Shown: positions 6,287-51,800 of the stretch, piece after piece
Numbering within the stretch: the first letter of the stretch is position 1
Layout of the letters: each line of letters begins with the position of its first letter
From: Raillietiella orientalis
Taxonomy: Eukaryota
Reading direction: 5' to 3'
NCBI GenBank assembly: GCA_036172245.1
Contig: JAYWIR010000009.1
Coordinates: forward strand, 1,736,001-1,800,000
Length of the DNA stretch: 64,000 bases
Program-made: the position numbers and the translations under genes
Notes under the pieces: generated by a model
Databases searched by the model: none
What the model was told of the DNA's origin: nothing
The model's input: the letters and a program-made list of their open reading frames with translations, nothing else

Positions 6287-6874
6287 CAAAAGTAAGGGCA
6301 GATCGGATAGAAAGAAAGAAAGAATAAGAGAAACAAAAATATGTATTGGTGGTTCGAAGCACGTACACCCCCATGTCATCTTTCTACGTAGTCACCATTT
6401 TTCCCCCCCAAGCACTTTTGACGCCGTGGAAAAAGCTTTTTTAGACCGTCTGCATGAAATTCCGCCGCCTGCGAGTTCAGCCACTCAGCAGCACTGCAGT
6501 TTTCAACTCCTCACTTTCTCCCTCGAATCGCTGAGCCACTTCTGGAGGTGCAGGAAGACGTGGTAGTCACCGGGGGCGAGGTCAGGACTGAGTGATCAAA
6601 AAGTTCCCATTTGAATTTCCGAACTGTTCCACAGTACCACAGTAGGCTGGCGAAGTGGTGGTCGTTCCGGTCTCCATAAAGTCCACCAAAAGCACACATC
6701 CTTTTGGCCCCACGCACTGCTGTCCGCACGCACATTCCAGACAATTCGGAAATTCAGATGGGAACTTTCTGACCACTCAGTCCTGACCTCGAACCTTCGA
6801 ACTTCGAACCACCAATACATATTTTTGTTTCTCTTATTATTTCTTTCTTTCTATCCGATCGGCCCTTACTTTTG
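6287..6874. repeat. Nested inverted-repeat (fold-back / MITE-like) element
   Basis: Outer arms 6287-6359 and 6802-6874 (73 bp, 2 mismatches). Inner arms 6577-6627 and 6741-6791 (51 bp, 4 mismatches). No target-site duplication evident. Confidence 0.9.
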
Positions 6875-32214: not shown

Positions 32215-34751
32215 CGGCCCGGCACAACCGGGTTCGAAGGCCCACATTCCCGGGTCTTATCTCTAATGTGGCTGAAGGAAGCGCGCGGAGGCTTCCTCGC
32301 CCTCGCTTTCCCTTCCTGCGGGAAAAACTTGTGGCTGTCATCGAATCCTGCTTCCCCTCCATTCGCCCTACGATTGCGGCGATGGATGATCACATGGCAT
32401 TGAGAAACGAGCCCGCCTCCGATGGATCGATTGACCTCTCTAGAGTCCGACCTAATTCGAAGGCCTCTGGAAGATACCACGAGCGCATGAAGGATTCCTC
32501 TAAGGTTTCCTCTAATCCCTCCAGCATTGTTCACTTCCCGTCCTTTCCTTGCTTCCTGGTCCAGGTCGACTCCATGAAAGCACGCCCCTCGTGCTCCACC
32601 AGGAGTGTTTCAATGTCAGGATGGGAAATTCTGTGAGATTGGGTTACAGAGGTGACGATCTTCAGTACAAACTCGGAATCCAGCATCAGGCTGGATTCCG
32701 AGCAACGAAGCGCCGCGTATCCTAGGGAACGCGAACCGTGGATCTTGGCAGCGAGCAACGCCGCATGCAAACGACTGCCACCGCTTTTCGTGCAGCCTCG
32801 CATCTGGAAAGATCTCTTCGGAGCTCGGTGGAAATTCTTGGAAGCACCTGTTGAGAGCACGGCGATTTGCAGCGCACTTCTGAGCCCTTCCGCACCCGAT
32901 TTCCTAGACTACCAAACACCCTGTATGAGGGGGGGCATAAAAAAAAAAAAAAAAACTCGCTAAGGGACTCTGCCCATCGGAGCGAGCACGGGGCCTTAAA
33001 CATTCAGCCAGTTGGAGTGAAACCGGCACAGAGTAATGGCAACCGAAAACATGAGCTGACTGAGACGGATCATTACGGCTGCTGTGGACAAAGGTGGTGC
33101 AACATAAAAAAGGCGCGGCATTTTCGGATGAAGTAAAATCGTGGAAAACGGAGAGAGAAAAGGAGAGTTACAAAGCTCAGGAACTACCACGGGAAGTCCA
33201 CGCACACGACAAATGAGAGGGAGTCAACTTTTCAGGGACCCAAGCGAGGTAATTGGGTGTCTTTGGAAGCGCACTTCAGACGGAAATAGTTTACATGAGC
33301 GAGGTGTTTTCTGGTTCAAAATTGGTTCCGTAGAGGGCATGGAGCCGCTGAAATGAGAAATGGAAAGAGCAAAATCGATAGAAACGACAAAGTCGGCGTC
33401 GGTGTACGTTGGAACCGGAGGAAGAAAGAGCACCGATAAAGGTAAGCTGACACGTCATCCTTACTTGAAGAATGATTTGCTGAGCGAATGGAGCAAGAAT
33501 CCACGTGAGGCAAAGCACTCCTGAAGAGCCAAGGGAGGCAAACGTGCCAAGCACTCCCTTCATATTCTTAAAACATTAGCATTAAGCGAGCATACGTAGA
33601 ATATCTAAGAAACTCCATGACGAGCCGGTGAAGAATTCGAATGATCTGCAGCTTACGAATATAGAAGTCCCAGAAGCTTTTTGCCCACATCAAAAGCATG
33701 CCGAAGATTCCTCTTCAAGGCCACAAAAGTACTCGTAAAGTGTAAGAAAGCTTAGAAAGCTTACAATGTAAAACGTTCGGGCAGCGAGGCAACTCGCCCA
33801 GCTCATTTCTCATCGACGTGTATTGCCAAATTCCGGGGCTTTTCGCAGAAAAGGAACGAATAAAAAACAACGGGAAATCTTCAACGGAGAAAATAGCTTC
33901 AAAAGAAAACGCAGAAATAATCAGCGCCGTACACACACACACACACACGTGGCCAAGCGATCAAGTACAAAGGTAATCTGGAATAAAAGGAATCACGAAT
34001 TTCAATATGCTGGATAAATGCTATGCTTCAAAGAGAGAGACAGTCATCAGCCAGGAAACAACGCTGAAAGAAATGTTGGAGAAGAGAATATGCGGTCATC
34101 ATTAGCAGAAGACAGACGTCTATCGATAGTTCGTGACTGATGATGGGGCCACAGAACTCGGATGACGTGCATTCCAAAAAAAAAAGAAAGAAAAGAAACG
34201 GATTGATGCGGACAAAACTTCCCCCAAAGCATTATTCATCTGAAGGTGAATAATATGTTAGCCAGGGTGAAAGGTACACCATGGAAAAAAATTTACTACA
34301 TCAGATACGCACTACGTCTGTCGTACAGACTTCATCTGGACTATCTGAAGACAGACCTAAAACATGGCGTCCAGACATAAAGCACGCTAGAAAGAAGGGA
34401 AGTGGAAGATCAGGAATTCCACTGTGACAGATGGCGAGGAATGGGGATAAATTCGAACTCCTCTTCGATTTTCATTCGTCGAGTGAAAGCAAACAAAAAT
34501 CGCGACAAGATACTGAGGAGAAAGAAGTAGACTTGGACCGTGGTTAACCGTAGAATGACCACACCCGCAAAGATAGAAAGGATTGGAAACGTCGTCATGA
34601 CGAGGCATTCGCGATTCAATGTCAAAGCTACACATGCGACCCCACTTGAAAAAAAAAAAAAGAAAGAAAAACGATATTCATGACCCGAGCGATTCAGTGC
34701 ACACATCACCGCTGGCGAAAGCTCTCCAACGGAAATACGAAACATTCCCTT

Positions 34752-34752
<1 letters not shown>

Positions 34753-34782
<30 letters not shown>
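34753..34782. repeat. (CA)15 microsatellite
   Basis: Read directly; a shorter (AC)n tract lies at 33931-33948. Confidence 0.95.
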
Positions 34783-34784
<2 letters not shown>

Positions 34785-35726
34785 GAATTGCGATTGGTCT
34801 CGCGCTTCCATCCACATGCGGCGCGCTGGACCACTTCCGGTGAGTAGGCCGTGGTCCGAGGGAAGAACCTCCCGACTTCCGGGAAAGAACCGACAGACGT
34901 GGAAAGGGTCAAAAACGTAAGCAGCCGCAGGCCCTGTCGGAAAAGCACTCTCGAGTGACCACTCCGATCTCGCCAGGAGACCCCGCGACCCTCCAGCACT
35001 GCGGGTGGCAGCGCCGGCGACTCGGCCAAAAAAACACTTCGTGTCGATCGCAACCACCAAAAACGTGTTTGGGGCATTGGGGGATAGCACTCTGCCAGCA
35101 CCTCATTTCCTCCCGAACTATGTAAAACGGAAAACAAAAGTTGCGTAACAGCTCCGACTGTGACGGCCTTATTACTCAACATTTCAGGTGGCACCATTTA
35201 AGCTCCAGTTGGTAAGAACCTACGGGCTGCCCTATTGTGTTCGGAGAGACACGCGGGCTTCCTTGCTTCCACCCTCCGGCGATTTTACGTGGGTGTTTCG
35301 TAATCCATGATGAATGGAGCATTCTTTGTGTTCGTACGAGTTCACCGAGTCGTACGGTTAGAACACGGCTGTAAACAAACACGCCGTGCACGTTACGCAT
35401 AACGCAGCACACGTATAGCAGAAGTAGAATGTGATTTATGCTTGTGGCACATTTATTATGGTTTTCCGACTGCTTTTTTTTTTTTCTTTTTTTTTCAAAA
35501 AAAAAAGAAAAAAAGTTGCATGAGATACATTCGTGTTCAATAACAACTGGTGTACCGACTAAAAAGTTTTTCAATTCCAGATGCACGATTGTTAAAATTT
35601 TGCCATAAAATAACATAACGGATCCCGAAATCAAATTAACTGGGCAGTTAAGGTGGTACTTTTTCAAATCTGACTTCAGCTTTTTATGTGGATACCAATT
35701 AGAAGCCCAAAAGCCTTACCCCAGCA

Positions 35727-35963
35727 ATGTCGGGCGGAAACGTACCTTACAACCCATATGATGTCCACAGAACCCCTCCTGAAATTACCAATTTCCTAGA
35801 TTTAAGAAATTACGTCAGAGAAGAAAACCTTGTTTTTCCTTTAATGATGACAGCGGCTGGATTTGCCCTAGCATTTATTCTGTTTTGTGTCTTCAAGACC
35901 TTTTGGCGCTACTTAGAGTATCAAGATTCACTCAAATCTGAACAAAAAAGGAATTTTGTATAA
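35727..35963 (+). CDS. Small single-pass membrane protein, 78 aa, family not recognised
   Basis: Open ATG-to-TAA frame in AT-rich DNA. Hydrophobic stretch LVFPLMMTAAGFALAFILFCVF followed by basic residues. AATAAA at 36007-36012. Upstream acceptors at 35679 and 35724, and a candidate 24-nt UTR exon at 35188-35211 (tttcag|...|gtaaga). Confidence 0.55.
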   Translation: MSGGNVPYNPYDVHRTPPEITNFLDLRNYVREENLVFPLMMTAAGFALAFILFCVFKTFWRYLEYQDSLKSEQKRNFV

Positions 35964-36006
35964 TTTGGCGGGATATAACAATAGTTCGCAGGCATGATGA
36001 TGGGGC

Positions 36007-36012
36007 AATAAA
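36007..36012 (+). terminator. Poly(A) signal of the 78-aa ORF
   Basis: AATAAA 43 nt after the stop codon. Confidence 0.45.
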
Positions 36013-36035
36013 GTTATTGAGGAGTTCGGATATAA

Positions 36036-36611
36036 TCAGTCTGGTCTTAACCTCTTGTTTGATGGAGGTTCTAGATTTGCATCTTCAAAAAAGTTTGAGT
36101 TGGAAAAGTCGATGCTATCCTGAGTGTCACTAGTCACACTGAAGGCTGCAAAAATGGAAAAAAATGAATGCGTAATGCCCCACTACCAGTGCCCACCTGT
36201 GTTGGAATCCTCATTGGCCATAGACAAATTGAGGGAGCTGCTTTCTGAACCCATCTTATCAATTTTCTTACGAAAGGCTGTATTTTCTTTATTTGCATCT
36301 CGATCTTTGGTATAATCTTCCCTTTTGGCCGTGTTTTTTTTCTTCTGTAACACCTCATCAAAAAAACAGCAGTAACTTTTGGGCAACATGATACCTGTTC
36401 TACTGTGCTGGCAGGAACCCATTTGAAAATCCTCATGGTTGTGTCTCCTATAGTAACCCATTTTTTCTCCCTATGGAAAGAAAGAAAACAGCACTAGAAA
36501 TAAAAGAACAGACACTTACCAGTGCCTTACTTTATCCACAACCAGCATAATACGCTTGATGTCATCTTTAGCACGACTACGAGTCTCTGCACGCACTGAA
36601 CGTGAAATCAT
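36036..36611 (-). CDS. BCL7: BCL7-family SWI/SNF subunit, 141 aa; exons 36611-36520, 36470-36395, 36344-36197, 36145-36036
   Basis: Spliced N-terminus [50 protein letters not shown] is the BCL_N signature. Three GT-AG introns of 49, 50 and 51 nt keep the frame. Ends ...[10 protein letters not shown]. Not shown intact in the ORF track. Confidence 0.96.
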
Positions 36612-36684
36612 GACTAACAAGTAGCTAAAAATGAGGTATACTTGAAGATGACTGATAACTTCGCCAGTTTCCCCAACCCGCTTT

Positions 36685-39221
36685 CTATTTCAATAGCCCA
36701 ATCCCACTGATTAACAGCTGACCACACAACTTTAAGGCAAGCTGCTGAGCCTTTGCCCAGTAGTGCCTCCTCATTAAGCCACTCAATTTGCTAAGTTCTC
36801 TCTCAGAAGTTTGTAGAATCCTGACTGGAAGTGACTATGGATCAGCTATATAAAAATGCTTGTCATTACTACAACTACCTGCACAAGTGCCAACTCCATG
36901 GAATACAGTGGAACACAGATGAAAAATAAAAGCAAATACAACAGCAGCACAATGGGAGGCAATGCACCCAAAAAGTAAATGTGTGTTAAACGTTGGCGGG
37001 ATCTCATCTGCTTATAGTTTTTGTGACTCCAGAGAAGCTGCTCCTGTATGATGACCTGGTTGCAACTCATCAGAGAAACAATACGCCTTAGCAAGCGCAC
37101 TGTTTCAGCTTCAACAGTTTGCCAATAAGCATTTCTGGGTTCAAAATTAGCTACCTTCTCCAGCAACACATTCTGCAAAGACAGGGGATGCAAAAGGAAT
37201 TGCAACTGCAAGTCAGGATCAACACTATGTTGTAAGTCCTGTAATACATTTTCTATATCCATTTCTTTGATTTCTATCTCCCAGGGTAGTGTCAATATAA
37301 GATTAAGTAACTCCTGCCTTAAAATTGTTACATTGTCAAATTGTGGCCAATAGCTTGCCTGCAATGCAGCAACTTGCCTTTGAAAGGGAACTTCCAAAGC
37401 ACCAAGAGCATAATTGTCTATTGCTAAAGTCAGAATGCACACCCAAATTAGGGAATGGGCGAGAGCTGCAGAAAGACTGCTTAGCTCAACTTCTCCATGA
37501 CTAATATGATCACGAAGTCGTGGGCCTGAAGGTTGAACAAACAAATCAAACAGCATATGGAGTAATCCTGGATTTATAATATCAAGTAAGTTATTGCACG
37601 CTCCTGTAGATAAACACTTTGACAAAATGGTATCCATAGTGGTGAACAAACAATGTGTGTGTGTAAATACGGAAAGTGGCAAGTTATTGCACTGGGAATA
37701 TACAATTCTCAAAGTGCACTCTAAAAGTGGCAAGGCAAAAATCACAAAGTCAGGCAATTCTTCACATTCATATAATTGTAAAACATAAGTCCAGGAATCT
37801 TGGAGGTTTCTTGGCACATATTGTGAGGTTTTTATCAACTTCTCAAACTGATGCTGAAAAAACGATGGTAAAGGAACCACACTATGTGAGCAATTTTCAT
37901 TCAAAATCAGTGGTGCTCTGGGAGACATACAAGGAAAGTCAACAAACTTCTGGAATAGTAGCTGACCCATTTGCATTAAAGAATAAATCAGAAGAGAAAT
38001 AAAGGGTTCTCTAAACTGAGCAGGCAGCAAAAATCCATGCCAAAGTAGATTCCTTAGATTGAGAGACCTTGGAGATCCACATAATAATTTTAAAAGGCAA
38101 ATCTAAAAGTACAATATGATCTTTACTTGGGCAGAATCCATACTATGCAATTTGTTTAAAGGTAAAAATATTTCCAATAAAATTCTCCAAAATTCAAGAA
38201 TAATTTTATTCTTATGTAATACTTTGACATACTGTATTTATCATTTTTGCAACATAATTTCAATTATCGATGATATATTGAAAAATAGGGTGATACGCCA
38301 AGAAAAATGATCAAAACAATACAAAAACCACGAATTGGTAATTACTGATTTCTAATTAAAATTATACAAAAGCATTTTTTGTTTTCTGGATAGAATTAAG
38401 TTTTACAAGGTTGCAAATTCCAAAAACTCACTTAATAATACAGACAGAATTACCATCTCGACTGAAAACAGTTCATTCAATTCAGGTAGCACGAGCAAAG
38501 CAGTTAAATGTTGTGGAACACTGGTTCTTTTCATCAGCAGGACCTAAATAATGTATTGTTAAACACATATTCTCATTACAAAAACAACCTAGTTATTACA
38601 CACGTTAAGAAAGCTATGCTGAAAGCTACAGTTATCTTTAAAACTTCCCAAAATCATGTCTAAATGAACATCTACACAGCAGGTGCTAATTAAGTGAAAC
38701 TTTTGTGTGGATGTGAATTACATTTCTTTCTCTTTTTCTCATTCAGTGAACAAAAACACTTTCATGCTTACATTCCCTAAACTATTTTCTAGAGTTGAAG
38801 TTAGCAATAAGCCTATATGAATGTTGAAGACACTTTGTTTCGTCTCTCCTCCTTTAATCATTGTTAACCACTGAGAAATTTTATTCCTAATGAAATCAAA
38901 ATTGGAAATCCAAGAAAGTAACGTAAATAGGTTGCTTGCTTCTGCTTTTTTGATGAAGGATACAAAATTAAAATGGAAGGACCAAATGTTAGGCGCAAGC
39001 TGTCGGGTAATTCGAAGAAAAAAATGCTTTTCATCCTCTGGACTAAATTGCTCGGAATTCCACAATTTGCATAATGGCTTAGTAATCAAATCACCGAAAA
39101 CAACACTAAGGTCTTCCATCGAAGAAACTGCATCACCATTATTGCACATTTCTTCTCTACTCAAGGTTTCCCATAACAATTCAAACACGTATTCGGATAA
39201 GAAGCCTTTCTGACTGTCCAT
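36685..39221 (-). CDS. ERMARD: ER membrane-associated RNA degradation protein (C6orf70/DUF4209), about 637 aa; exons 39221-38772, 38543-38454, 38102-36879, 36834-36685
   Basis: Motifs [57 protein letters not shown] and MRSRQR match ERMARD. All three introns are phase-0 GT-AG. The last exon is inferred through a 44-nt intron. A possible extra 5' micro-exon ATGTGG (39354-39349) would splice to 39239 and add MWENADLT. Confidence 0.92.
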
Positions 39222-40439
39222 TGTCAAATCAGCATTCTCCTACAGATTCACTAATTCACTTTCCCATGAGAATATTCTGATTGACGTAATTCCTCTTTGT
39301 GGGAACTTATTATCTCATACACAAAAGTGCAAGCACAAACTGGCGTACCCACATTTGTTTTGAAAACACCGTTTTCTTGCTGCAATTTTTATGACAAAAT
39401 GAGTGCCAAACTAAGAATTGAATTGCAAGTTGGAGAAAGCATTAAAATGTAATAAATGTAAAATGTAAAATCAATCTGAAAATTCGAAATATTAATTATC
39501 TTTTATGAAATAGGAACTTCATCGGAAATAGTTACAAAAGTATCGAAAATACTAAAACTAGAAATACGGTGAAATAACAGACTACAATTTTAAATGTACA
39601 TAAAGTTGAAAAGGATAGCATTAGAGAAAAATGGATGATGGAAGTGACAAGTATTGACTAACAGCCTAATAAAAGCACTCCAATCTTTCAGATCTGTATT
39701 AACTGTCTTCTGTAAGCAATGTAACTATAATTCCCGAGAGTAAAATTAATTTTTACTTTGGCTTGCACACTTGCAACTGGTTACCGGAAATTCCTATTTA
39801 TGAAATACAATTTATTTCATGAGTATCACGAAAAGTTCCACGAGAACAGAAAAGGAACGAAACTCTAAAAATGATCACTTGTTTTATTACATTAGATACT
39901 CAAAGAATATTTTAAAACTAAGTAGAAACAATTTGCAAAAAAGGAATAAAAATCGAATTTAAATTCAGAAAAATTTGGGTAGTATGATCGCCATCTCGCC
40001 ATCTCTTTCTAAAAATAGTTTTGCAAATGATACATGCTACTATTACATCAAATAATGAGACTTTGCAGTCATGGTCAACTGTTAATCTATGCGCTCAAGA
40101 GATACTTACAAGGAGAAGAGATACTTTTAATACAGGAAAACTGTATTTGTATTGTATTGTACTGTATTGTATAATCTGATTCTAATAAAGCCTCTAATGA
40201 AATGTCTAATACTGACTTATAATGATAGTGAACTTCAACCTAATAAACATTGAAGATTCAAACTGAGAATGTTTAATAAACTTATTGAATCCAGAATATC
40301 GATTTAAATAATTAACCTTCAAAAATTCACTTCACCTCTGACGATGCGATGGAAAGATAGCGTTAAACGATTCAACTGTACTTTTTTATTGCAGCAATTG
40401 CTTTTAATTTACCTTCATAGGGATCAATGTATCGTCAAG

Positions 40440-41100
40440 TGACTCATTAAACTAATAGAACAGACATCAAGAAATCTAGTGAGCCCTCCTGTATTCTACG
40501 TGATCATTCGAAGTGTTTGGAGTGCTCTTTCCATGTTCACAACTACATAGGTCGGATTTGAGTGAATGAATGTAATATATCATAAGCAATCATTGGTTAT
40601 AAAATGATTTAGTCCAATCCAGCGGTGATTATATTCATGATTTCTGAAGATAGGTCTTTAGACTTATTTTAATGTTGGATAAATACTGATAAACTGACTA
40701 TATATGGTGAGTCACTTAAGTCCTCAAGTCTGGCTTTGTGGCGAAATGGAGTAGGGTTGGGGCATTTATTAGCAGTTAATACAAGAGGTGCTTTAAAACT
40801 AGAAGTAGAAACAATTATTAAATCATGCGCACCATCATCATGTGTAGGATTAATGATTTTTTTATGATTCATTCTTTAGACTGGTTACGATATACAATAT
40901 TGCTTACACCTAGTTATATGTATGAAAATGTTTGTAGAGCATAATTTGATTTCGGATGGTCTGGCATTTTGGAATCAAAGTTTTGCAACATGTGTTGTGT
41001 ATCAATCATGAGAAAATTTTAATGTTATGTAATATATCATTCTGAATGAAAGGAAATTTTGGTGCAATTTAGACAAAAGTTCTGGTTCTCGAAAATCATA
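40440..41100 (-). mobile_element. Possible highly decayed Penelope-like RT relic
   Basis: Minus-strand peptides PELLSKLHQNFLSFRMI (Penelope P.lYglPKiHK..iplRPI), YTTHVAKL and, further downstream, GGLTRFLDV (Penelope g.l.FLDv) occur in the expected order among many stops. No YVDD seen. Confidence 0.25.
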
Positions 41101-43049
41101 AATTTAGAGATTATCATTATTTGGAAAATTGATTCTATGTACTTATTCAGAGATCAAATCTCTCAAAAATACTGTAAAGGAGAATTCGTGTTTTATGTGC
41201 TCTTCAATCAATGAAGTTTCAGAAGCCTAATGTTGCTTTTCCTAATTGGAATCTTAATGACAGAAATAAGTTTTAAAATATCAGTTCTTAATAAATGGCT
41301 TGATTTTTTACCAGTAAAGCAATGAAAATGGCTTGCTACCAATAGCATCATTGAATCTACGCAATTTATCACTGAAAGAGAAATGCATCTGTTTTGGGGG
41401 GAAATCTCTCCCCAGGAAATACTATGAAATTAACAACACTCACTTTTTTCTTAAGACACGAAGAAAAGCAAAGGGCACTCTGACAGTCAGTTAGTAAGTA
41501 TTATTTGTGATTCTTGTGTAAGTCATTCAGCACTTTCTTTCCCCAAGAATGGCTGTCAACTCACTATAACTTCAATTCATTTTGTTTTTAATTTCAAAAG
41601 ACAAAAGTGTTTTTGTAATGTGTTTCAGGTAGCTACTCTATTCCGAGCATAAAGCAACGGGAGTACAATTTTTATAAATTCACAGTACAACCTGATATGA
41701 TGAGATGCCCTAAATGAAACTAGGAAATGATGTTCCAGAAAGATTATCATGTGTCAAGTTAAATTAAATTCAAGTTTGCACTGTCGTTCGACCACAAACG
41801 GGTCAGAAATCGTTCCACTGAACTAATGAATGCGGTGAACTGCGGTTCGGATTAGCAGCATTCCTGCCAACCCTTACCCCCTGCAAGACTAAACAAAGCT
41901 AGTTCGCTATACTGAAGGCATTAAGCTCTAGATCAAAAGGTCTTCGCGAGCTCTTGGAGGTCCCTTTTGAAAGAAATATTGCCTTCGATTCATCTAAGGG
42001 GCCCGAACAGTTGCGTCGAGATGCGCGGAAGTATGGGTGGACATGAAATGGGGTGAGCAACGGCATTAGAGGAATAATCACTGGGGCCATAGGGATGGTG
42101 CGCCTGGAAGCGTCTGCACATTGCCAAACGCCAACAGATACAGCTAAATTGCCCTGCCATGTAAGGCACCTCGCCTCTTTAGCTTGAATGGTTCAGTAGA
42201 TCTTGAGCAAGGTCATTATTAGTTCATGTTCACTTAATATGCGAACGAGTGACCTGCTACACCGGAGAGCTGTGCCCCTCTGACACACACTGACTGGTCG
42301 TTCAGTTCGTCCTTTGAGCTTCTTGCTTGGAGATTTTACAGTTTGTTTATGTTTTGAGGGTTTTTTTGTCGGCGCTTAGATTCCTTTTTTAATGTTTCCT
42401 TTTAATAATCGAGTGCTGAACCGTGTCAAGCTGAATCAAACTGATAGCATGGTATAGAAACTCGAGTATTCATTCTTCTACATATTTTTCATCACATTTC
42501 ACTTCTGTTAGCAGCATTCGACTGCAATGTGCAAATTGGTTAGCGAATTTCTCCTTGAATTTTATTAGTAAAATTGTTTGTTCAACAAAAAAAAAAGGAG
42601 GTCCCTTTTGTTCGTAACAAAATGATCATTTTTAGCTATTGTGGGAAAGGAAAGGAGTGATATACCGTAGCATTTTTCGGTCGGTGACGACACAAAAAAG
42701 ACCGTGTCGGTACTGCAAGAACAATTAGTGGAACTGAAGGCAGCGTTGGGAATTTGTCTCCAGACTTGAAAACTGGGCACCCAACAGTTCCCGTGACCAG
42801 AATGTCACTCGGAAAAACGGCTGTCAACCATTCCAAGAACACAGGTTTCTTCTTCTGCCCCATGTAGCTCAGAACTTTTCCCTGTCACCTCAACAGCGTG
42901 CAAAGAATTCGCAGAAATACTGGGTGAAAATTTTCTATTTGAGCGCTCTACCCCCAGTACATCAATTCCCTATAGAAAGATTCAACAGGCAATCATCTAT
43001 AATATCTTTTATAGACATTGTATAGTCTGTCTCATTAGAAAAAGCAGAC

Positions 43050-43475
43050 TCATTGATGAACAACATATCAAAAGGATTTGTAAGGAATGCCATCCATGTT
43101 CCTTGGTGGAAAATGTTGAATTTAAAAACTTTGTCCATTTGCTTAATCCTGGATATCAGTTGCCATCTCGAAAAACTATATCAAACATCTTATGAAGCAC
43201 TTTTCCCTAGTTTGTATAAAGAAACGAAAATTGAAGTGCAACAAAACTTGAATTCTACTTCTGCAGTTTGCTTGACCACAGATGGGTGGACCTCTCTAAA
43301 CAAAAGTTTTCTGGCGCTCACTGTTTCTTATATGTTGTCCAATCCCTAGTTATGTTTTCTATCTTCTGAGCTGTTCAGAGTTTGCTGAAAAACAGGAAAT
43401 AATTCTGATTGACTGTCGAACATCACCACAGAATGGGATATCGCAAATAAAATTACTGCAATCGTAACTGACCCA
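43050..43475 (+). mobile_element. hAT-superfamily (ZBED1/ZBED4-like) transposase fragment, disabled
   Basis: PCSLVENVEFKNFVHLLNPGYQLPSRKTIS from 43094, frameshift, VCLTTDGWTS (first catalytic Asp at 43281-43283), SFLALTV, then EWDIANKITAIVTD (second Asp at 43470-43472). Stops and truncation; no TIRs seen. Confidence 0.88.
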
Positions 43476-44358
43476 CAATAGTCATGAAATCTTTGAAATA
43501 AATAAGGTGCACATATTAAGGGCATTCATTGAAATGAGTATTCCAGTGTTGAGCATCGGTGTAATATGAAGTTCCGTGTAGAAAAATCGAAGGTGATCAG
43601 TATATAAGGATCTGTAATTTTGTTTTCTTACCACTAAATAGATCTAAGCTTCGTCTTGAGCATACATAATTTTAATCACAAGTCGTTTATGGAACTGTTT
43701 TGAGATTGAGATTACAAACTTCTTACGATTGTGAGATGAACTGGTTTTAGAAACTCTAGTTAAAATACTTGCGATTTCCTGAAATGCTTGTTAGATACAT
43801 TAGGGCATCATTTCGTTTTGAATATTTTATGAGAATCAATGAGCAGAGCTCATTATAGTTGTTCATCATGAAAATCTGTTCCCTTAGTTCAATTTTCAAG
43901 CTACTTAAATTTTTAGAGTTCTGAACGTCGTTCTAATTGATTGTGAGGGGAAGCATAAAAAAACATTCCATGAAGGGAAATTCTGTTCTGAAAATGGTTT
44001 TTGATTCAGAACACAACCTTATAACCCATGTTTACTGGTTAACACTATTGCATTTAAGGATATGTGTTTCGTTTTAGTCCTTGTAGGATGGGAATGTTTA
44101 AATAAAAACGAGGATTGATTGAAAGCGTTTCAAAGTCACTTTCCGCAGAAAGAGTTTTTTAAATCTATAAACACACATCCGAATCACGTAAGTCTTTGTT
44201 ATACATGGAAGTAGTTCAAGTTTTTCCTTAAAATTTCTCAAGAGAGATTGATGTGGCACCATTCTGGTACAGAAATGAGGATCAGTCCAAAGAGTGAAGC
44301 GCAATGTGTTGCGGAAACAGTCTGGACCGTAGGATTCGCGTGATGATGTTGGATAGTA

Positions 44359-46061
44359 ATGCATTCATTGCCCAAGATTAGGATCAACTTATGTAAAGCA
44401 ATTCGAGTTGCCCACGTTCTGAGAGATCGAACTTTATTTAAGTTTACGGACAAGGCAGAAATGCTACAGAATTGTAATTTCTTGGGGAACAGTAACCCGA
44501 CTTCTTTGTCTCCCAAAAGTGATAACTACGATAGTGATGCCAGTGAAAAAGTGGGAAACGTCCCCCAGCACAAAATTCAAACATCACATATTGAGCATGA
44601 TGTGATGCCAGTGGAAGAGAAGCTTCAGAAATTGAAGCGGAGAAAAATTGCAATTCTACTTTCATTTTGTGGTACAAATTATTATGGTATGCAAAGGTAT
44701 TGAAAACGTTAATACCAGTGAGAGATGTATTTCTTTAATGAAACTGTAATTCTAACGAAAACTGGCTTGTTTTAAAATATGTTGGTATTTGGATGGGAAC
44801 ATTCAAACAGTTGCATTGAAACAAAGTTTTAATACGTTCGAGACGTGACTTGATTACTTGTTAAGTTAGATGTGTGAAATCGAATTTTTAGGAACCCAGG
44901 ATTTGTTACAATCGAAGAAGAATTGTTGACTGCATTATATCACATAGGATGTATACCACTTGGAGGATATGAGAGATCTCAAACTTCCAGTTTTCAGAGA
45001 GCTGCCAGAACTGATAAAGGTGTATCAGCTACAGGAATGGTAGTTAATGTAAGATCCGGTAGGCTTGCCTTTCCGAACATCATGAATGCTTTTGAAAATT
45101 GTATTTGTAGTCTTAATGGATGATTTCAAAGATAAAATGAATGCTGTATTGCCTCCTGATATACGTGTGATCAGTTGGAAAAGAGTTACACAGGGTTTCA
45201 ATGCAAAAGTGGCTTGTGATGCTCGTACTTACATCTATTACCTCCCTTCCTTTGCTTTTGTACCTTTGGAAGAATGGACCCAAGAAAACTATCGAATTTC
45301 TCCAGAACTCCTTCAGAAAATCAATGATGTACTATCCCAGTTTCTGGGAACACACAATTTCCACAATTTCACATGTGGCAAGTGAGATTCCTTTTTTTTG
45401 ATATCATGTTAGTTGTGCAGAAAACCAGAGGATGCTAGTGCCAGAAGATATATCATGGAATTTTCATGTGTGCAATTATTGGAAAAAGAAGGCTTGGAAT
45501 TTCTGGTGTTGATGGTGAAGGGCCAAAGTTTTATGATGCATCAAATACGCAAAATGATTGGTGCCACAATTGCCATAATAAGAGGTCTGGCAACTCCAGA
45601 TTTAATTGAAAAAGCTTGGCTGTCAGACAGAGTTGACATCCCAATTGCTCCAGGACTAGGATTACTTTTGGAGAGGGTGAGTATTCTTTAATGAGAAAAT
45701 AATCAAAACTGCCTTAAGATTCACTATCGATGGTATAATGAGAAATATGGAAATGATGGTCTCCATGAACCATTAATCTGGGATGATGTAGAAGAAGAAA
45801 TAGAACAGTTCAAGCAAGACCACATTTGGCCTACCATTATCAAAGGGGAGAAGCAAGACAAGTCGTAAGATGGAGCATTCAGTTGTTTCGTTATGTTGTA
45901 TTTCTAGCATGTTTAACTGGCTGACTACACTTCACAACCACACATTTGATGTACGCCCTTCTAGTGTGCCAAGTCATCAGTCTGGAGTCAGAAGCAGAAT
46001 AGGCGCAGCTGCTCTGTTGTTAGAATGCATGCAGAATGAGCATGAAAATCAAAATGAATGA
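44359..46061 (+). CDS. PUS1: tRNA pseudouridine synthase 1 (TruA family), 443 aa; exons 44359-44696, 44892-45058, 45111-45381, 45421-45676, 45719-45864, 45908-46061
   Basis: Motifs KRRKIAILLSFCGTNYYGMQRNP, catalytic FQRAARTDKGVSA, CDARTYIYYLPSFAF, GTHNFHNFT, KGQSFMMHQIRKMIG and PIAPGLGLLLER. GT-AG introns of 195, 52, 39, 42 and 43 nt give a continuous 1332-nt frame. Confidence 0.97.
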
Positions 46062-46142
46062 GTACTTTTCCTGTAAACTTCAAAGTAAGGAAGATTGACA
46101 AAGAATGGAATATCATATGTAAAAATTTATGCAAATGAATTC

Positions 46143-46148
46143 AATAAA
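46143..46148 (+). terminator. Poly(A) signal of PUS1
   Basis: AATAAA 81 nt after the stop, followed by T/GT-rich sequence. Confidence 0.65.
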
Positions 46149-47496
46149 GCCTCCTGCTAATCTTTTTAGTCAAATTGCATATGTGTACCACGATGTCTTT
46201 TTCTCAATATTTTTGGAATTGTATGCTAGATTTTTGTGCTTGTTTTTTGTTTTCCATAAGCAAAAACAAACACAAAGTGGACCCATGGTGCAAAGGATAT
46301 CAAAGTGAATGTTTCACAAAACTGTAGATGTAGAGAAGTATGCATCTGTATGTGCATTTGGATGTCTGATTATCTGTAGCTGCAGTTCTGTGGAACAACC
46401 ACAGAAGTATGCTTCTTTGAAGACCTGTGCTGTAAGAGTTATTGAATTACCACATTTAAAGCCATTACCTGTACAACTCGTTTTCTTGTATTGCAATGCC
46501 ATTTATTTTTTTATAACTATTTTATTTTTTAGTCCTACTCGAAATTTACTGTTGCAGTAAATTGTATTTCTGAACTATTGCAAAAGTCTGCTTACATTGA
46601 CCAAGCATTTATCAGCAAAGTTTGTAAACTTCCTTTGGTAGTCAGCCTGGAAGAAAATGTTTTGCTTCATTATCTCTTGCCTTGGTTGTGTTTATGTTAA
46701 AACAATCAAACGCATTTTCGGATACCATTGTCATATCCTTTTTTGTATAAATTCGGTTTGCTTCTATTAGCTGACATGGCAGATATATTGATTTCATTCG
46801 ACTTCCTTTGTATCCACTGTATCCGGCATGGTCATCTATTTGACTGACACAGTGAGGTACCAAAGCGCCAAAGCAATATTTGGGTTGTTACTATCAAGTG
46901 GGAATTTTAGAAACATGCACTGGTTTCCCCAGATGTGCAACACTTTTCTAATGTGCCATACTTTCAGATACGTGTGCATATATTTATGTCTTTTTCTGTA
47001 TCAGTATTACTTCACTTTTATAATGCCTTGTCACAAACACTGCAGGTGCATTTGTGGGATGGTTGGGGTCTTAGACATGTTAAGAAAATTTTGAGCTCAG
47101 TTATAACTATTCGGCATTTTTCCCGTAAAATGCTACTTGTGCAGACGCCCTGAATTCGCAGCAAAAACCGACCAAAGTTGCAGCACAGTATTTTGAAATG
47201 CGGAGGTTATTTTAGCGTGGTTGAATACAGGAACGGCTGCCCATAAAGATTGTAGCAAAATACGGAACACCCGAGTATTCAGTCACGTTCTTTTGGATGA
47301 GCGTATTTCTAACTGTAACAAAAAGGAAAGGTCAAGCATCTTTGTGGCATCTTTATTCTCGACTCCTCCATATCCAGGCTTTTTGAAAGAATGAATTCAA
47401 ACCAGAGTGCCAACTTCAACCACTCAAGTTTCTGACAACGAGACCGAGCACCTTACCGAATGGTCTTCTCTAATGTATTTTACATGTTCTTTAGTG

Positions 47497-47655
47497 AACA
47501 GGAGCGGTTCCCTTGCGGGATCCCTCCGGAGAAGGAATTCCTACTGGCGGATCCTTTCCGGGTTCCCTTCGGAGAATTCAAATGGAGAGGACCCCCCCTA
47601 TTAGGGGGTTTCCCTCCGGAGAGAATGAAGAAGGAGGTTCCCTTCGGGGTTCCCC
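47497..47655 (+). repeat. Dispersed repeat, copy 2, with internal GGTTCCCTT(G)CGG x3 and TCCCTCCGGAGA x2
   Basis: Sub-repeats start at 47506, 47561, 47636 and at 47521, 47611. Homologous to the reverse complement of 1850-1955. Confidence 0.65.
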
Positions 47656-48797
47656 GTCGTTTTTTTTAAAAAAAACAAAAAAAACAAAGAGGCGCTTTCC
47701 AGGGGAATGCATCGACAGCCGAACCTTCGTCGCGTTGAAACAGATAAGACTTTCTGGAGATGGGCATATGCGGAGCGAACCGAAAACCTTTTGTTAGCTC
47801 CCACGCGCACGCGCACATGGAGTGTCCCACGAGCACAGTTGCCAACTTTTTTCGCGGCTTCAGATTTTCCACGACTGCATCGCTGACGGTTACCGCATTT
47901 CAAGAGTTGTTGCCATTCGGAAAATCTGCTTTTCTCTTCGCTCCTCCATTTCCCGGATTCCCTCTCGTTTTCATTCCTTCTTCTTTTTGGAATGGACCGC
48001 TCTTCTCTCTCGACTTTTCCTCCTTTCTCGGGTGGCTTCTCAGCTCTCCCGAGCACGTTTGTCACTCCGCCCACAGGTTCTGCGGGTTTTCCTTGTGGAA
48101 TTCACTTCATTTTGCAGCAGTTTGCGAGCTCGAGGAAGGAGTCATTAGCAAGTAACACAAACGATGGTCATGCAGGGCAGTCATTGCTCCATGCATAATA
48201 CGGAACAAAGCTTTCGCTCTTTCTTTGTTTCCGTCTTCTTTTTTTTTTTTGACTTTTCCTTTTTTGCATGCACTCTTTCATTTTGCTCTCCTTGTCTCGA
48301 AATCGGAGAGTTTGGAGCTCTGCGGGTAGCCAGCCGATCATCCTTGCTGGACCACGTCGGACCCACCCTCCGACGAATCCAGCTTCCACGGTGTGTTTAA
48401 ACACGAGTCAAGTATACATTTCACATACGTATACATAAAAATACATTCCCCACTTCCCGCTTCTAGAGGAAGACGTCGATGGTTGGTGCCAACCCTGGAC
48501 GTTTTGGTCACCTGCTTTGGCATCAACAGGAAGGGGATCTTGTCTCAAGAATCCTTCAGTTTGTGTTGTTGTTGTTGTTTTGTTTTTCCAGGGAAATTCG
48601 TCCCTTCCGAACCAATTCCTTGAGAACCGCCTGTCCAGCGCCACATTCCTACTGTTTATGAATATCCTCACGCACCAGCTGTGTATGCGTGCCAACGTCA
48701 ACACTTGCGGGTCACCCTCGCTTGCGGCTGTCCTCAGCCGATTTCCACGTACCGCTTGCACTCTTCAACTGCGAAGACAACTTGAGCGTTCGAGCAC

Positions 48798-48850
48798 GCG
48801 CCCCACCGTTGGCGAAAGGAGCCTTTGAAAGCGCACCACCGTTGGCGAAA
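48798..48850. repeat. 20-bp direct repeat gcgcMccaccgttggcgaaa, period 33
   Basis: 48798-48817 and 48831-48850, one mismatch. Confidence 0.8.
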
Positions 48851-51800
48851 CCGAAGAAGGCCGAGGCGTTTATACGCTCGCTGATGCTGCGGAACGCCCG
48901 CACCCAGTGCGCACGCCCGTTCTATTAATAGAGTGGCACGCACGTTTGGTGCACTCTCAGGAAGGTCTTCCTGATTGCAACCACTGAAAGAGGAATGTCT
49001 GGATCGAGCGATGTGGCTGATGAGCGTCTGCAGAGACGTGCGACGTGAGGCTCGTGCGGAGCGATTCGCCCGATGAGAGATCTGTTGGCGTGCCACATGA
49101 CCTGAGGAGCTCTCGCGGAGAACCGGAATTCTTGGCACGCGCGCGTGCGCTCTCGCGGCAATCGCATGCGAAGCGCACCTTCCCGACCGACCCTGAGAGG
49201 TCAGTCTGGACGAGCGCACCCCTGACCCATTCGACCGTTCCCTTGCGGGAAATTCCCTTTCTTTTCCTCGGGGAGCGCTGGCTGCTTTGCTCTCCCGGAA
49301 CCCCGCAGGGCATGTGGCGCTTTCGCTTGACCCCGGGTCGACCCAGCGCAAGCGTCGATATGGCAGTTCCTCGGATAGCCTCCCTCCAAGACCTGCTGAC
49401 TTCGGTTTGATCCCCTGTGCCCTCTAGACGCTTGTAGCGACGTGGAGATCCCATCCTGACCGGATGCTGCTGCTCGGCGCTACTTTGCGAAGAGGAGAGC
49501 AGGAAAAAAGCGTCCCAAAGAGGAGGCCCCTCTCCACGATCCCCCCTCGGGACTCCAGCGTCCTCGCGTTCCTCCGGCGTCCCGCAGCCCCAGGCAGAGC
49601 CGGGAAGCCGAGCGGTGCTTCTGGAACGCACGAGCGTCTGCCTATGCGGGGCGCCTCGCGCGTGGGAAGAGCGCACAACAACGGGGTCGACTTCCAGCCG
49701 TGACCTCGCGCCTTGACGGGCAAGATGCTCCCACGCCTGGGCGGAGCTGGGGTGACCAGCGCGACAGGGAGGGAGGGAGACGCGTGCCAAGCGGACGCGG
49801 CCCAGGGAGGAAGGCGCGGGCCGGAGGCCTTCCTTCTCGGAAGCGGCATCCCGGGGGCACGACACCCTGGCCGGCCGCGTGCACGTGTGAAGAGAGACGG
49901 CGCCCTCTCGGGGTCCGACCAGTCCCCTGTCGGCGGAAGGGGGGGAGCGAGATTGCACAGCCCAAGGGCATGCAAGATACGGAGGCCGCTCTCCCTCCCG
50001 CGCACTGGCGGCGGCACCGGCAGGAAGCCGCAAAAAAAGGGAGGGAGGAGGGGTTGCCAGGGTTACTCGCTATTTGCGTACCTGCTGGCTCGCTTCCCGC
50101 GCTCCCGGGCCGCGCGGGAGCTCCCATTTGCTCCCGCGCCTCCCTGCCGGCAGCGCGCGCCTTCCCCGCTCCTCCCGCGGCCTCCCTCGGAGGCCCCTCC
50201 TGCTCTCCCGGAAGGCCCCCCAAAGGAAGCCAAGATTTTCCCGATACTCGGAAGCTGGTGCGTCCGACCGGGGTCTCTCCGAAAGCTCCTCCTGTCGCTC
50301 CTGCAGAAGGTTCCCGGGTGGGGAGGCGACCCACGCGCCGGCGCAGGCCCTGCCGTTCTGAGCTGCCACAAGACAAGGAGGTACTCCGTCGAGGAGAGGT
50401 GAGAGGGCGGGAGGGACCCCTTCCCCGGCCGCCGAGGTCGCCGTGCGAGGGAGAGGAGGGTTGAGAGGGGGGGGGGAAGACTCCTCTCGCCGCTGAAGAC
50501 TGAGGCCGTCTGGCCGTGGACGTGCCGAGCAGCCTCCTCGCCGGGGAGTCGCCCCCGTGGCTGCCTGGTGGCCCGGGGGCGTCGCAGAAGGAGAAACTTC
50601 TGCAAAGGGAGCGGAGAGGGTGGTAGTCCTGCGCCTACAGGAGGAGGAAGCCAGCCTCCAGGCGGTTCCTGGAGCGGTGGCGGACCGGCACGCCTTGTTC
50701 CCGACCGGCCCCTTCCGAACGGATTCCGGTCCTCCTCGATGCAACAGCTCCTCTGGCAGGAGGAGGATCCTGGATGCTGCGATGGACCTTTCCCCTTCCT
50801 ACCCCTTCCCATCCCCCTTTCCCCTTCCCATCCTCATGGATCTGGGAGGGCGGGCCGGTCCACACATCCTCCTCCTCCTGCCTGCCCCGCGTTCCTGGAG
50901 GAAACCCGCCGTGCTTCCGTCTGTTGGGCGTCTCCGGGAAGAAGCCCAAGTGATCTCCCGAGCGGCGGCCGACTTGCCTCGGGGTACCCGGAGGAGATCC
51001 CGCGGCTGGACCGACCCGCCACGATGCTGTGGCCACTGTGCCGCGGAGATCAGTGGACTCTCTCCTCCCGGGTCTCTTTCGTTTCCCGAAGCGCGCCGCT
51101 CCTTTAGGCCAGAGAGTGTGACCTCTGTGGGACCGTCATCCCATGCAAGAGGTCTTCGGTCTCCGGAGCTCCTCTGGCACACCCTACAGGGCCGGTGACC
51201 GCACAGAAGGATCCCCCACGCGACGCAACTGGCCTTTACAGAGGTCATAGCGAGACCGGAAGAACTTTCGCCAATAACGTCATTCGTCCTCGCTACACGC
51301 CGTTGCCACGTGGATCCTCCTTCGCCCCCCGTGAGGCTGTCTCCCGGCGTTCTTCTTCTCCCGCGGCCCTTGGTTCAGAAGCGCAGCTTCTTTGCCAGTC
51401 CCTCGCCGGGTCCTCTGCCTCCCCTTCCCCTCCTCATCCCCATCGGCACGGGAGATCGAAACGGCTCGCGTTGCATCCCGAAGCCTCACTTTGCAGCTCT
51501 TCCACCCAGGGAGAGACTCTCCCAAAAGACGTCGGTCGCCAGGGAAACCAGGCTTCTCAGCGACTCCTTCTGACCACGCGGGCGGCTACGAGGAAGGGAG
51601 AAAGAGTGGAGCGTGGAAGGAGGTTAGGGAAGCACAGGAGCGACTCGTCCTCACGAGTCAGAGAGCCGAAGGGTCCGCTGTTGTGGCTGTCGGAGACTTC
51701 ACCCCACGTCTGCGCTGCTCGGGAGGCCGGCGGGAAAGGGCGGACGGCGTGCAACGAGCGGGGCCTGCCCGCCCGCATAGTCCTGCGCACACGGCAGGCG

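What the first reader, a model, noticed from the sequence alone, without database searches (positions are those of the whole stretch)
36612..36684. ERMARD and BCL7 separated by only 73 nt: candidate operon, dicistronic or shared-promoter unit
Seen: the ERMARD stop (36685) and BCL7 ATG (36611) are on the same strand. The gap has no AATAAA and little room for a promoter, but has two acceptor-like sites, TTTTTAG| 13 nt and TTGTTAG| 2 nt before the ATG. Inference, three models: (1) a polycistronic pre-mRNA resolved by spliced-leader trans-splicing; (2) a shared 5' exon upstream of ERMARD (donor at 39348) spliced over the whole ERMARD CDS, so that ERMARD lies in BCL7 intron 1 and uses the BCL7 3' end; (3) a true dicistronic mRNA. 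I know of no described link between these two genes. Even if my last ERMARD exon is wrong, the gap is under 250 nt.
Basis: partly seen in the sequence, partly recalled or inferred. Interest (0 to 1): 0.72.

Follow-up and report, generated by a model that had tools for sequence, protein, structure and literature searches.

The report
Two unrelated genes 73 bases apart
An ERMARD gene and a BCL7 gene lie head to tail on the same strand, about 73 bases apart, in an unidentified animal-like genome with very short introns; this spacing suggests they are transcribed together, but without RNA data the sequence cannot show how.

Summary
On the minus strand there is a complete four-exon ERMARD gene (DUF4209, 637 aa; ATG 39221, stop TAG 36687-36685). 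It is followed by a complete four-exon BCL7 gene (BCL_N, 141 aa; ATG 36611, stop 36038-36036). The 73-nt gap depends on a 44-nt last ERMARD intron. That intron has moderate support: it adds 6.2 bits against a profile of 88 homologues, 0 of 300 shuffles reach that score, and its donor is strong. Without it the gap is 234 nt.

The gap has no AATAAA or ATTAAA, no ATG and no unusual RNA fold. It does contain TTTTTAG 13 nt before the ATG and TTGTTAG 2 nt before it.

The mechanism cannot be settled. No RNA run was listed, no genome is held, and no close relative exists in the protein libraries.

My estimates:
- Polycistronic transcript resolved by spliced-leader trans-splicing (tunicate-like operon): about 0.40.
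- Independent BCL7 start inside the gap or the ERMARD 3' end: about 0.35. An initiator-like TCAGTC lies 44 nt before the ATG.
- Shared 5' exon: about 0.10.
- True dicistronic mRNA: about 0.08.

The pairing is not conserved: 0 of 47 ERMARD-like metagenome loci carry BCL7. Interest is modest.

The parts
38772..39221 (-). ERMARD exon 1, coding part from ATG 39221
   Evidence: ORF matches positions 5-137 of the profile of 88 homologues, E 1.6e-9; donor AAT|GTAAGC
38454..38543 (-). ERMARD exon 2
   Evidence: ORF matches profile positions 136-168, E 4.8e-4; flanking introns of 228 and 351 nt
36879..38102 (-). ERMARD exon 3, 408 codons, carries the second half of DUF4209
   Evidence: PF13910 E 5.1e-13; 268 bits against the homologue profile; 530 relatives at E<=1e-3
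36835..36878 (-). Proposed 44-nt last ERMARD intron (GTAGTT...CCATAG)
   Evidence: Donor scores 8.4 bits when left out of the matrix, top 0.6% of 1593 GT sites. Acceptor is weak at 1.28 bits. Its length lies within the 39-52 nt range of 6 of the 9 other local introns.
36685..36834 (-). ERMARD exon 4 (49 codons) plus stop TAG 36687-36685
   Evidence: Adds 6.2 bits and extends the profile match from position 573 to 622; 0 of 300 shuffles and 1 of 131 other ORF tails reach that score
36612..36684 (-). 73-nt gap between the ERMARD stop and the BCL7 ATG
   Evidence: 41% GC, no ATG, no AATAAA or ATTAAA; RNA fold z-score +0.69, 150 of 200 shuffles fold at least as well
36684..36689 (-). AATAGA, the only poly(A)-hexamer variant near the ERMARD stop; overlaps the stop codon
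   Evidence: that it is a minor poly(A) signal variant is recalled, not tested
36650..36655 (-). Initiator-like TCAGTC, 44 nt before the BCL7 ATG
   Evidence: 9 copies in 30 kb of strand length; expected 0.022 per 73 nt; a second looser match, TCATTT, at 36634. The consensus is recalled from arthropods and was picked after looking.
36625..36631 (-). Acceptor-like TTTTTAG, leaving 13 nt before the ATG
   Evidence: 3.55 bits, top 17% of 1728 AG sites, within the range of true local acceptors
36614..36620 (-). Acceptor-like TTGTTAG, leaving 2 nt before the ATG
   Evidence: -0.83 bits, top 57%: no better than chance
36520..36611 (-). BCL7 exon 1 from ATG 36611
   Evidence: PF04714 BCL_N profile positions 1-29, E 8.9e-14
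36395..36470 (-). BCL7 exon 2
   Evidence: BCL_N profile positions 30-48, E 3.5e-10; 49-nt intron before it
36197..36344 (-). BCL7 exon 3; contains AATAAA at 36293-36288
   Evidence: Spliced reading frame is open; hexamer found
36036..36145 (-). BCL7 exon 4 with stop TGA 36038-36036
   Evidence: Spliced product of 141 aa
35874..35879 (-). AATAAA, candidate BCL7 poly(A) signal, about 157 nt after the stop
39240..39249 (-). Strong acceptor-like site GAATCTGTAG, leaving 18 nt before the ERMARD ATG
   Evidence: 9.2 bits, top 0.2% of 1728 AG sites. Candidate donors upstream at 39352 (6.55 bits) and 39348 (2.7 bits).
36846..36852 (-). TATATAG inside the 44-nt intron: a weak TATA-like element, and the stop codon if the intron is retained
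   Evidence: The only TATA[AT]A match in 36950-36612; the motif occurs 0.57 times per kb per strand in the island

Best explanation
ERMARD and BCL7 are two intact, unrelated genes packed head to tail. I think the most likely mechanism, though not a proven one, is co-transcription from the ERMARD promoter as one pre-mRNA. That pre-mRNA would be resolved by spliced-leader trans-splicing at the TTTTTAG acceptor 13 nt before the BCL7 ATG, with the ERMARD 3' end formed in the 60 nt between its stop and that acceptor. This resembles the operons of tunicates, which have little or no intercistronic spacer.

Shown: both gene models, the 73-nt spacing (with moderate support for the last ERMARD exon), the absence of a canonical poly(A) signal, and the acceptor-like site.

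Inferred only: co-transcription, the existence of a spliced leader in this organism, and which acceptor is used.
For: 1. The genes lie on the same strand 73 nt apart, while the neighbouring spacers are large. About 5 kb separates the ERMARD ATG from the divergent PUS1 gene. The GC-rich flanks gave 0 Pfam hits in 139 long ORFs. General genome compaction therefore does not explain the tight pair.

2. There is no AATAAA or ATTAAA between the ERMARD stop and the BCL7 ATG. In Ciona, 16 of 18 operons lack AATAAA upstream of the first cistron's poly(A) site, and Oikopleura operons lack it too (PMC1488885, passages read).

3. An acceptor-like TTTTTAG lies 13 nt before the ATG and scores within the range of true local acceptors.

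4. 7 of the 10 local introns are 39-52 nt long. From my own knowledge, such modal intron lengths in animals are typical of nematodes, larvaceans, rotifers and parasitic flatworms, all of which use spliced leaders.

5. Operon spacings reported elsewhere are of this order: median 1 bp in Ciona, 31-57 bp in Oikopleura, about 100 bp in C. elegans (PMC7986045, passages read).
Against: No transcript evidence of any kind is available.

The organism is unidentified. The best ERMARD identity is 24-43%, and the tree places the window on a long, unresolved branch. Whether this organism has a spliced leader is therefore unknown.

No SL RNA family matched in the window, although such genes need not lie here.

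The -13 acceptor is not statistically unusual: 17% of AG sites score as well.

PUS1 has no good acceptor just before its ATG; the best site within 40 nt scores 2.25 bits.

An initiator-like TCAGTC inside the gap offers an ordinary alternative start.

The pairing is absent from 47 of 47 ERMARD-like metagenome loci. That argues against an old functional link, but not against a lineage-specific operon.
Confidence: 0.4

Rival explanations
1. Two independent, overlapping transcription units. BCL7 has its own TATA-less core promoter inside the gap or the last ERMARD exon, for example a start at the TCAGTC at 36655 giving a 5' UTR of about 42 nt. ERMARD transcripts end either just before that start or inside BCL7.
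For: TCAGTC lies 44 nt before the BCL7 ATG on the sense strand; the expected number per 73 nt is 0.022, from 9 copies in 30 kb of strand length. The same hexamer lies 77 nt before the PUS1 ATG. A looser match, TCATTT, lies at 39402, just upstream of the candidate ERMARD 5' donors. The next AATAAA after the ERMARD stop is at 36293, inside BCL7 exon 3, as expected if the ERMARD 3' UTR overlaps BCL7. A plus-strand ORF at 35727-35963 would overlap the BCL7 3' end, which suggests a locally crowded gene island.
Against: The initiator consensus is recalled from arthropods and was chosen after looking, and it is not known to apply to this organism. If PUS1 started at its TCAGTC, upstream ATGs would precede its start codon. 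Promoter elements would have to lie inside ERMARD coding sequence. ERMARD would need either a 3' UTR under about 30 nt with no canonical signal, or read-through across the BCL7 promoter. The plus-strand ORF has no detectable homologue.
Confidence: 0.35
2. Shared promoter with alternative splicing. A non-coding 5' exon upstream of ERMARD is spliced either to the acceptor at 39240 to make ERMARD mRNA, or across the whole ERMARD coding region to the acceptor at 36625 to make BCL7 mRNA. This is the arrangement of the cholinergic locus.
For: The site 18 nt before the ERMARD ATG is the best acceptor-like site in the island (9.2 bits, top 0.2% of 1728). That argues for a spliced 5' UTR, or a trans-splice site, for ERMARD. 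Candidate donors lie at 39352 (6.55 bits) and 39348 (2.7 bits). The -13 site before BCL7 is usable as an acceptor.
Against: ERMARD mRNA would still need a 3' end within the 60 nt before the BCL7 acceptor, or would have to run on through BCL7. A 2.7-kb intron would be about eight times the longest of the 10 local introns, which span 39-351 nt.
Confidence: 0.1
3. A true dicistronic mature mRNA. BCL7 is translated after termination at the ERMARD stop, by reinitiation or internal entry.
For: There is no ATG in the 73-nt gap, so the BCL7 ATG is the first one after the ERMARD stop. There is no poly(A) signal between the two reading frames. The BCL7 ATG has a purine at -3.
Against: Absence of an ATG in 73 nt is expected by chance about 1 time in 4; this is my own estimate from the base composition. 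Reinitiation after a 637-codon ORF is inefficient (established knowledge). The gap has no unusual RNA structure (z-score +0.69).
Confidence: 0.08
4. A gene-model or assembly artefact. The last ERMARD exon is not real (gap 234 nt), or one of the two genes is not expressed.
For: On its own the 49-codon exon scores at noise level (-0.2 bits). Its acceptor is weak. One of 131 unrelated ORF tails scored higher.
Against: All 4 exons of each gene are intact, and the profile or domain matches are in register. 0 of 300 shuffles reach the spliced score. Even the fallback gap of 234 nt is short.
Confidence: 0.07

Closest known systems
SL-resolved operons of tunicates (Ciona intestinalis, Oikopleura dioica)
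   Same: Same-strand cistrons with almost no spacer, an acceptor directly before the downstream 5' UTR, an upstream cistron without AATAAA, mostly two unrelated genes, and short introns (PMC1488885, passages read; PMC7986045, passages read).
   Different: No spliced leader, SL RNA gene or polycistronic transcript has been shown for this organism. The surrounding window is gene-poor with long GC-rich stretches. From my own recall, that is unlike the compact Oikopleura dioica genome.
SL2-type operons of Caenorhabditis elegans and other nematodes
   Same: Co-oriented genes, short introns, and a downstream gene with an acceptor near its ATG.
   Different: Intercistronic regions there are about 100 nt, measured from a poly(A) site that normally follows AAUAAA (PMC1488885 and PMC7986045 passages). 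Here the whole distance from stop to ATG is 73 nt and there is no AATAAA. Local acceptors are mostly TAG (6 of 10), not the nematode UUUUCAG (recalled).
Dicistronic genes of Drosophila, such as stoned and Adh/Adhr (recalled, not looked up)
   Same: Two unrelated ORFs on one strand separated by tens of bases, with no ATG in between.
   Different: Those are defined by a mature mRNA that carries both ORFs, which could not be tested here.
Cholinergic gene locus (VAChT inside the first intron of ChAT, with a shared 5' exon; recalled)
   Different: No shared exon or junction has been shown. The proposed donor is weak. The two products here have no known functional link (search listing only).

Membership tests
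ERMARD (DUF4209 family) | DUF4209 domain (PF13910) | tested here: met
   E 5.1e-13, 49.3 bits against a cut-off of 22.3. Profile positions 46-85 lie on exon 3; the first half of the domain falls on exon 2 by the homologue profile.
ERMARD (DUF4209 family) | Full-length collinearity with annotated ERMARD proteins, including the C-terminal hydrophobic segment and the conserved tail block | tested here: met
   The three ORF matches together cover positions 5-622 of a 638-position profile built from 88 homologues. The spliced product is 637 aa, against about 560-730 aa for those homologues. The tail is only moderately supported.
BCL7 family | N-terminal BCL_N domain (PF04714) at the very start of the protein | tested here: met
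   Profile positions 1-29 on exon 1 (E 8.9e-14) and 30-48 on exon 2 (E 3.5e-10); the domain begins at residue 3.
SL-resolved operon | Co-oriented neighbours with a very short spacer | tested here: met
   73 nt from stop to ATG; 234 nt in the fallback model.
SL-resolved operon | Splice acceptor directly upstream of the downstream cistron | tested here: inconclusive
   TTTTTAG at -13 scores like real local acceptors, but so do 17% of AG sites.
SL-resolved operon | The organism has SL RNA genes and its mRNAs carry a non-genomic leader | not testable with these tools
   No genome is held and no RNA run was listed. Rfam found no SL RNA in the window, which says little.
SL-resolved operon | A polycistronic precursor spanning both genes | not testable with these tools
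   No reads were available.
Dicistronic mRNA | A mature polyadenylated mRNA containing both ORFs | not testable with these tools
   No reads. The sequence is compatible: no ATG and no AATAAA in the gap.
Shared-5'-exon nested locus (cholinergic type) | A common first exon spliced alternatively to both genes | tested here: inconclusive
   Strong acceptor before the ERMARD ATG (9.2 bits). Upstream donors at 39352 (6.55 bits) and 39348 (2.7 bits). No junction evidence.

The most novel reading that the evidence does not exclude
The pair is a genuine spliced-leader-resolved operon, or another single-promoter unit, in an animal lineage with no sequenced close relatives and no described operons. That would add an independent origin, or a wider spread, of polycistronic transcription in animals. 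It would also couple an ER-associated RNA-degradation factor with a SWI/SNF chromatin-remodeller subunit.
Probability: 0.12. Interest if true: 0.55.

Novelty: new member of a known kind. Interest (0 to 1): 0.3.

Why it matters
If the two genes are co-transcribed, the locus marks this unidentified, fast-evolving animal-like lineage as one that uses operons. That bears on how often polycistronic transcription and spliced-leader trans-splicing arose in animals, and it would matter for annotating the rest of the genome, where fused or mis-started gene models are a risk. If BCL7 instead starts inside the gap, the locus is an ordinary case of crowded tandem genes. Either way there is no sign of a conserved functional link between ERMARD and BCL7.

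Tried and rejected
- Whole genome: none is held. Genome-wide spacing statistics and an SL RNA search were therefore impossible.
- SL RNA in the window: Rfam at gathering threshold found only an LSU rRNA fragment. A permissive scan of 33000-48500 gave 9 weak matches, all far below their thresholds and none an SL RNA.
- Organism identity was not resolved:
  - ERMARD relatives are at most 24-43% identical.
  - The named relatives span echinoderm, brachiopod, mollusc, hemichordate, insect, crustacean, sponge and cnidarian.
  - In a 121-row FastTree the window sits on a 1.82 branch joined to another long branch, which the tool flagged as unreliable.
  - A PUS1 exon found 195 relatives at E<=1e-3; the 120 best listed are 49-56% identical, mostly teleosts plus amphioxus and one insect, which is uninformative.
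- Synteny: 47 ERMARD-like metagenome loci, and 0 of 47 have a BCL7 N-terminus at E<=1. An earlier run used a mis-phased exon 2; its best exon 1 hit was E 1.2. By my estimate 37 of the 47 have at least 500 nt, and 24 at least 1500 nt, downstream of the ERMARD match.
- Fused ERMARD-BCL7 proteins: 0 of the 151 proteins held contain a BCL7 N-terminal motif. A 'longer' homologue search gave 1 hit, with DUF4209 only.
- Other last exons: introns of 33 and 54 nt give short unrelated tails and no gain in score (268.6 and 269.5 bits). No other ORF in 34000-41000 matched the profile tail better than noise.
- RNA structure in the gap: none beyond chance.
- The promoter and terminator scan uses bacterial consensus sequences and is irrelevant to a eukaryote.
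- Literature: ERMARD + BCL7 gave 1 paper, a gene-network method, seen only in the search listing. bcl-7 + operon + trans-splicing gave 0 papers.
- The plus-strand ORF at 35727-35963: no homologue in the 42-137 aa range searched, only sub-threshold Pfam matches, and atlas scores under 0.9.

Full report
**What is there**

The window is eukaryotic. It has an AT-rich island of 30-45% GC from about 33 to 48 kb, set between GC-rich flanks of 50-70%. No whole genome is held for it.

On the minus strand of the island lie two complete genes.

The upstream gene carries DUF4209 (PF13910, E 5.1e-13). A search of 1.84 billion representative proteins found 530 relatives at E<=1e-3, of which 238 were at <=1e-10 and 7 at <=1e-30. 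The best 150 were 24-43% identical. 14 of the 20 clusters I looked up carry source names, 13 of them 'endoplasmic reticulum membrane-associated RNA degradation protein' and one a JGI 'hypothetical protein'. The species include Acanthaster, Lingula, Haliotis, Ptychodera, Anabrus, Penaeus, Geodia, Nematostella and Amphibalanus.

The downstream gene carries the BCL7 N-terminal domain (PF04714), split by an intron. Profile positions 1-29 lie on exon 1 (E 8.9e-14) and positions 30-48 on exon 2 (E 3.5e-10).

**Gene models**

| Gene | Start | Exons | Introns (nt) | Stop | Length |
|---|---|---|---|---|---|
| ERMARD | ATG 39221 | 39221-38772, 38543-38454, 38102-36879, 36834-36688 | 228, 351, 44 | TAG 36687-36685 | 637 aa |
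| BCL7 | ATG 36611 | 36611-36520, 36470-36395, 36344-36197, 36145-36039 | 49, 50, 51 | TGA 36038-36036 | 141 aa |

A profile built from 88 of the 151 proteins held, those of 560-730 aa, matches three ERMARD pieces in order:
- ERMARD exon 1 at profile positions 5-137 (E 1.6e-9).
- Exon 2 at positions 136-168 (E 4.8e-4).
- Exon 3 plus exon 4 at positions 166-622 of 638.

**The last ERMARD exon decides the size of the gap**

If the transcript is not spliced, the frame stops at TAG 36848-36846 and the gap to the BCL7 ATG is 234 nt.

With a 44-nt intron (36878-36835) the protein gains a 49-residue tail. That tail aligns in register with the conserved C-terminal block of the homologues.

- The score rises from 268.3 to 274.5 bits.
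- None of 300 composition-preserving shuffles of the tail reaches 274.5 (mean 269.5, sd 1.3, maximum 274.2).
- Among the last 49 residues of 131 other ORFs from 33-48 kb, one exceeds it at 275.7.
- The donor CAG|GTAGTT is strong: 8.4 bits when left out of the matrix, top 0.6% of 1593 GT sites.
- The acceptor is weak at 1.28 bits.
- The length fits the locus. Six of the nine other introns are 39-52 nt, including 39, 42 and 52 nt in the neighbouring PUS1 gene.
- Alternative introns of 33 or 54 nt give no gain.

I take the 73-nt gap as probably right, at roughly three chances in four.

**The gap itself**

The gap 36684-36612 is 73 nt and 41% GC. It has no ATG and no AATAAA or ATTAAA. AATAGA overlaps the stop codon. 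The next AATAAA on this strand is at 36293, inside BCL7 exon 3, and the one after that is at 35879, about 157 nt past the BCL7 stop.

TTTTTAG ends 13 nt before the ATG and TTGTTAG ends 2 nt before it. I scored both against a small matrix built from the 10 local introns:
- The -13 site scores 3.55 bits. True acceptors score 0.3-7.3 bits when left out of the matrix, so the site is usable.
- However, 288 of 1728 AG sites in the island score as well or better, about 10 per kb per strand, so it is not a rare event.
- The -2 site scores -0.83 bits and is no better than chance.
- The literal heptamer TTTTTAG is rarer, 9 in 30 kb of strand length.

The gap region folds no better than shuffled sequence (z-score +0.69).

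The gap also holds TCAGTC at 36655-36650, 44 nt before the ATG. I recall this as the arthropod initiator consensus. It occurs 9 times in 30 kb of strand length, so 0.022 is expected per 73 nt. Another copy lies 77 nt before the PUS1 ATG. This motif was chosen after looking at the sequence, and its relevance to this organism is unknown.

**Context**

- ERMARD has the best acceptor-like site of the whole island, leaving 18 nt before its ATG (9.2 bits, top 0.2%). ERMARD therefore probably has a spliced, or trans-spliced, 5' UTR.
- Upstream of ERMARD there are about 5 kb of AT-rich non-coding DNA, then a divergent PUS1 gene. PF01416 matches one of its exons at E 2e-8, and the model gives 393 aa.
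- PUS1 shows no good acceptor close to its ATG.
- Downstream of BCL7, a plus-strand ORF (35727-35963) would overlap the BCL7 3' end. It has no detectable relatives.
- In the GC-rich flanks, 139 of the 169 ORFs of at least 130 aa were scanned and none hit Pfam.

**Is the pairing conserved?**

A scan of metagenome contigs with an ERMARD alignment returned 47 loci, 25-72% identical over their best segments. None has a BCL7 N-terminus at E<=1. By my estimate 37 of them have at least 500 nt, and 24 at least 1500 nt, downstream of the ERMARD match.

None of the 151 proteins held contains a BCL7 motif. The literature search for both names found one unrelated paper, which I saw only in the listing.

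The adjacency is therefore lineage-specific. That is usual for animal operons and equally usual for chance neighbours.

**Mechanism**

No RNA run was listed, so the mechanism is inferred, not observed.

For a spliced-leader-resolved polycistron:
- The spacing is very tight in an otherwise roomy window.
- The poly(A) signal is missing. In Ciona, 16 of 18 operons lack AATAAA upstream of the first cistron's poly(A) site, and Oikopleura operons lack it as well (PMC1488885, passages).
- Operon spacings elsewhere are of this order: median 1 bp in Ciona, 31-57 bp in Oikopleura, about 100 bp in C. elegans (PMC7986045, passages).
- There is a usable acceptor at -13.
- Introns of 39-52 nt are, from my own knowledge, typical of spliced-leader-using animal groups.

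Against it:
- The organism is unknown.
- No SL RNA was seen in the window.
- The acceptor is not statistically unusual.
- An initiator-like motif in the gap offers an ordinary alternative.

| Model | My estimate |
|---|---|
| SL-resolved operon | 0.40 |
| Independent overlapping transcription units | 0.35 |
| Shared 5' exon | 0.10 |
| True dicistronic mRNA | 0.08 |
| Gene-model or assembly artefact | 0.07 |

**Verdict**

The locus is most likely a new instance of a known kind of arrangement. Its interest is modest unless the lineage turns out to be one where operons are unknown.

Noticed in passing
window 19172-19686 (-): An isolated fragment of eukaryotic LSU rRNA (RF02543, 130 bits, model positions 955-1444 of 3401, with inserts) lies in GC-rich sequence, with no other rRNA parts nearby. 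It may be an rDNA-derived pseudogene or a repeat relic.
   Followed up: partly
window 1-33000 and 48000-64000 versus 33000-48000: There is a sharp compositional contrast. The flanks are 50-70% GC, unique (no direct repeat families of 60 nt or more), and gave no Pfam hit in 139 long ORFs. All recognisable genes sit in a 30-45% GC island. No explanation so far.
   Followed up: partly
window 44359-45868 (+): A complete PUS1-type pseudouridine synthase gene lies divergent from ERMARD. It has 5 exons, encodes 393 aa, and has introns of 195, 52, 39 and 42 nt. PF01416 matches one exon, and relatives of one exon are 49-56% identical.
   Followed up: yes
window 35727-35963 (+): A 78-codon ORF with one hydrophobic segment lies convergent on BCL7. 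Its AATAAA at 36007 and the BCL7 AATAAA at 35879 would make the two 3' ends overlap. No homologue was found in the 42-137 aa range searched, so it may not be a gene.
   Followed up: yes
window 42797-43346 (+): Two adjacent ORFs of 132 and 107 aa lie between ERMARD and PUS1. To my eye they resemble a hAT-type transposase remnant (recalled motif), but Pfam gave nothing significant.
   Followed up: partly
window 6287-6359 and 6802-6874: An inverted repeat with 73-nt arms, 97% complementary, 442 nt apart; possibly a small foldback or MITE-like element.
   Followed up: no
window 34753-34782: A (CA)15 microsatellite at the edge of the AT-rich island.
   Followed up: no
loci L001-L018, among others: Many metagenome contigs encode ERMARD-like proteins as one long uninterrupted stretch covering query residues 3 to about 400, as the window does. 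This suggests intron-poor ERMARD genes in several unsampled eukaryotes.
   Followed up: no
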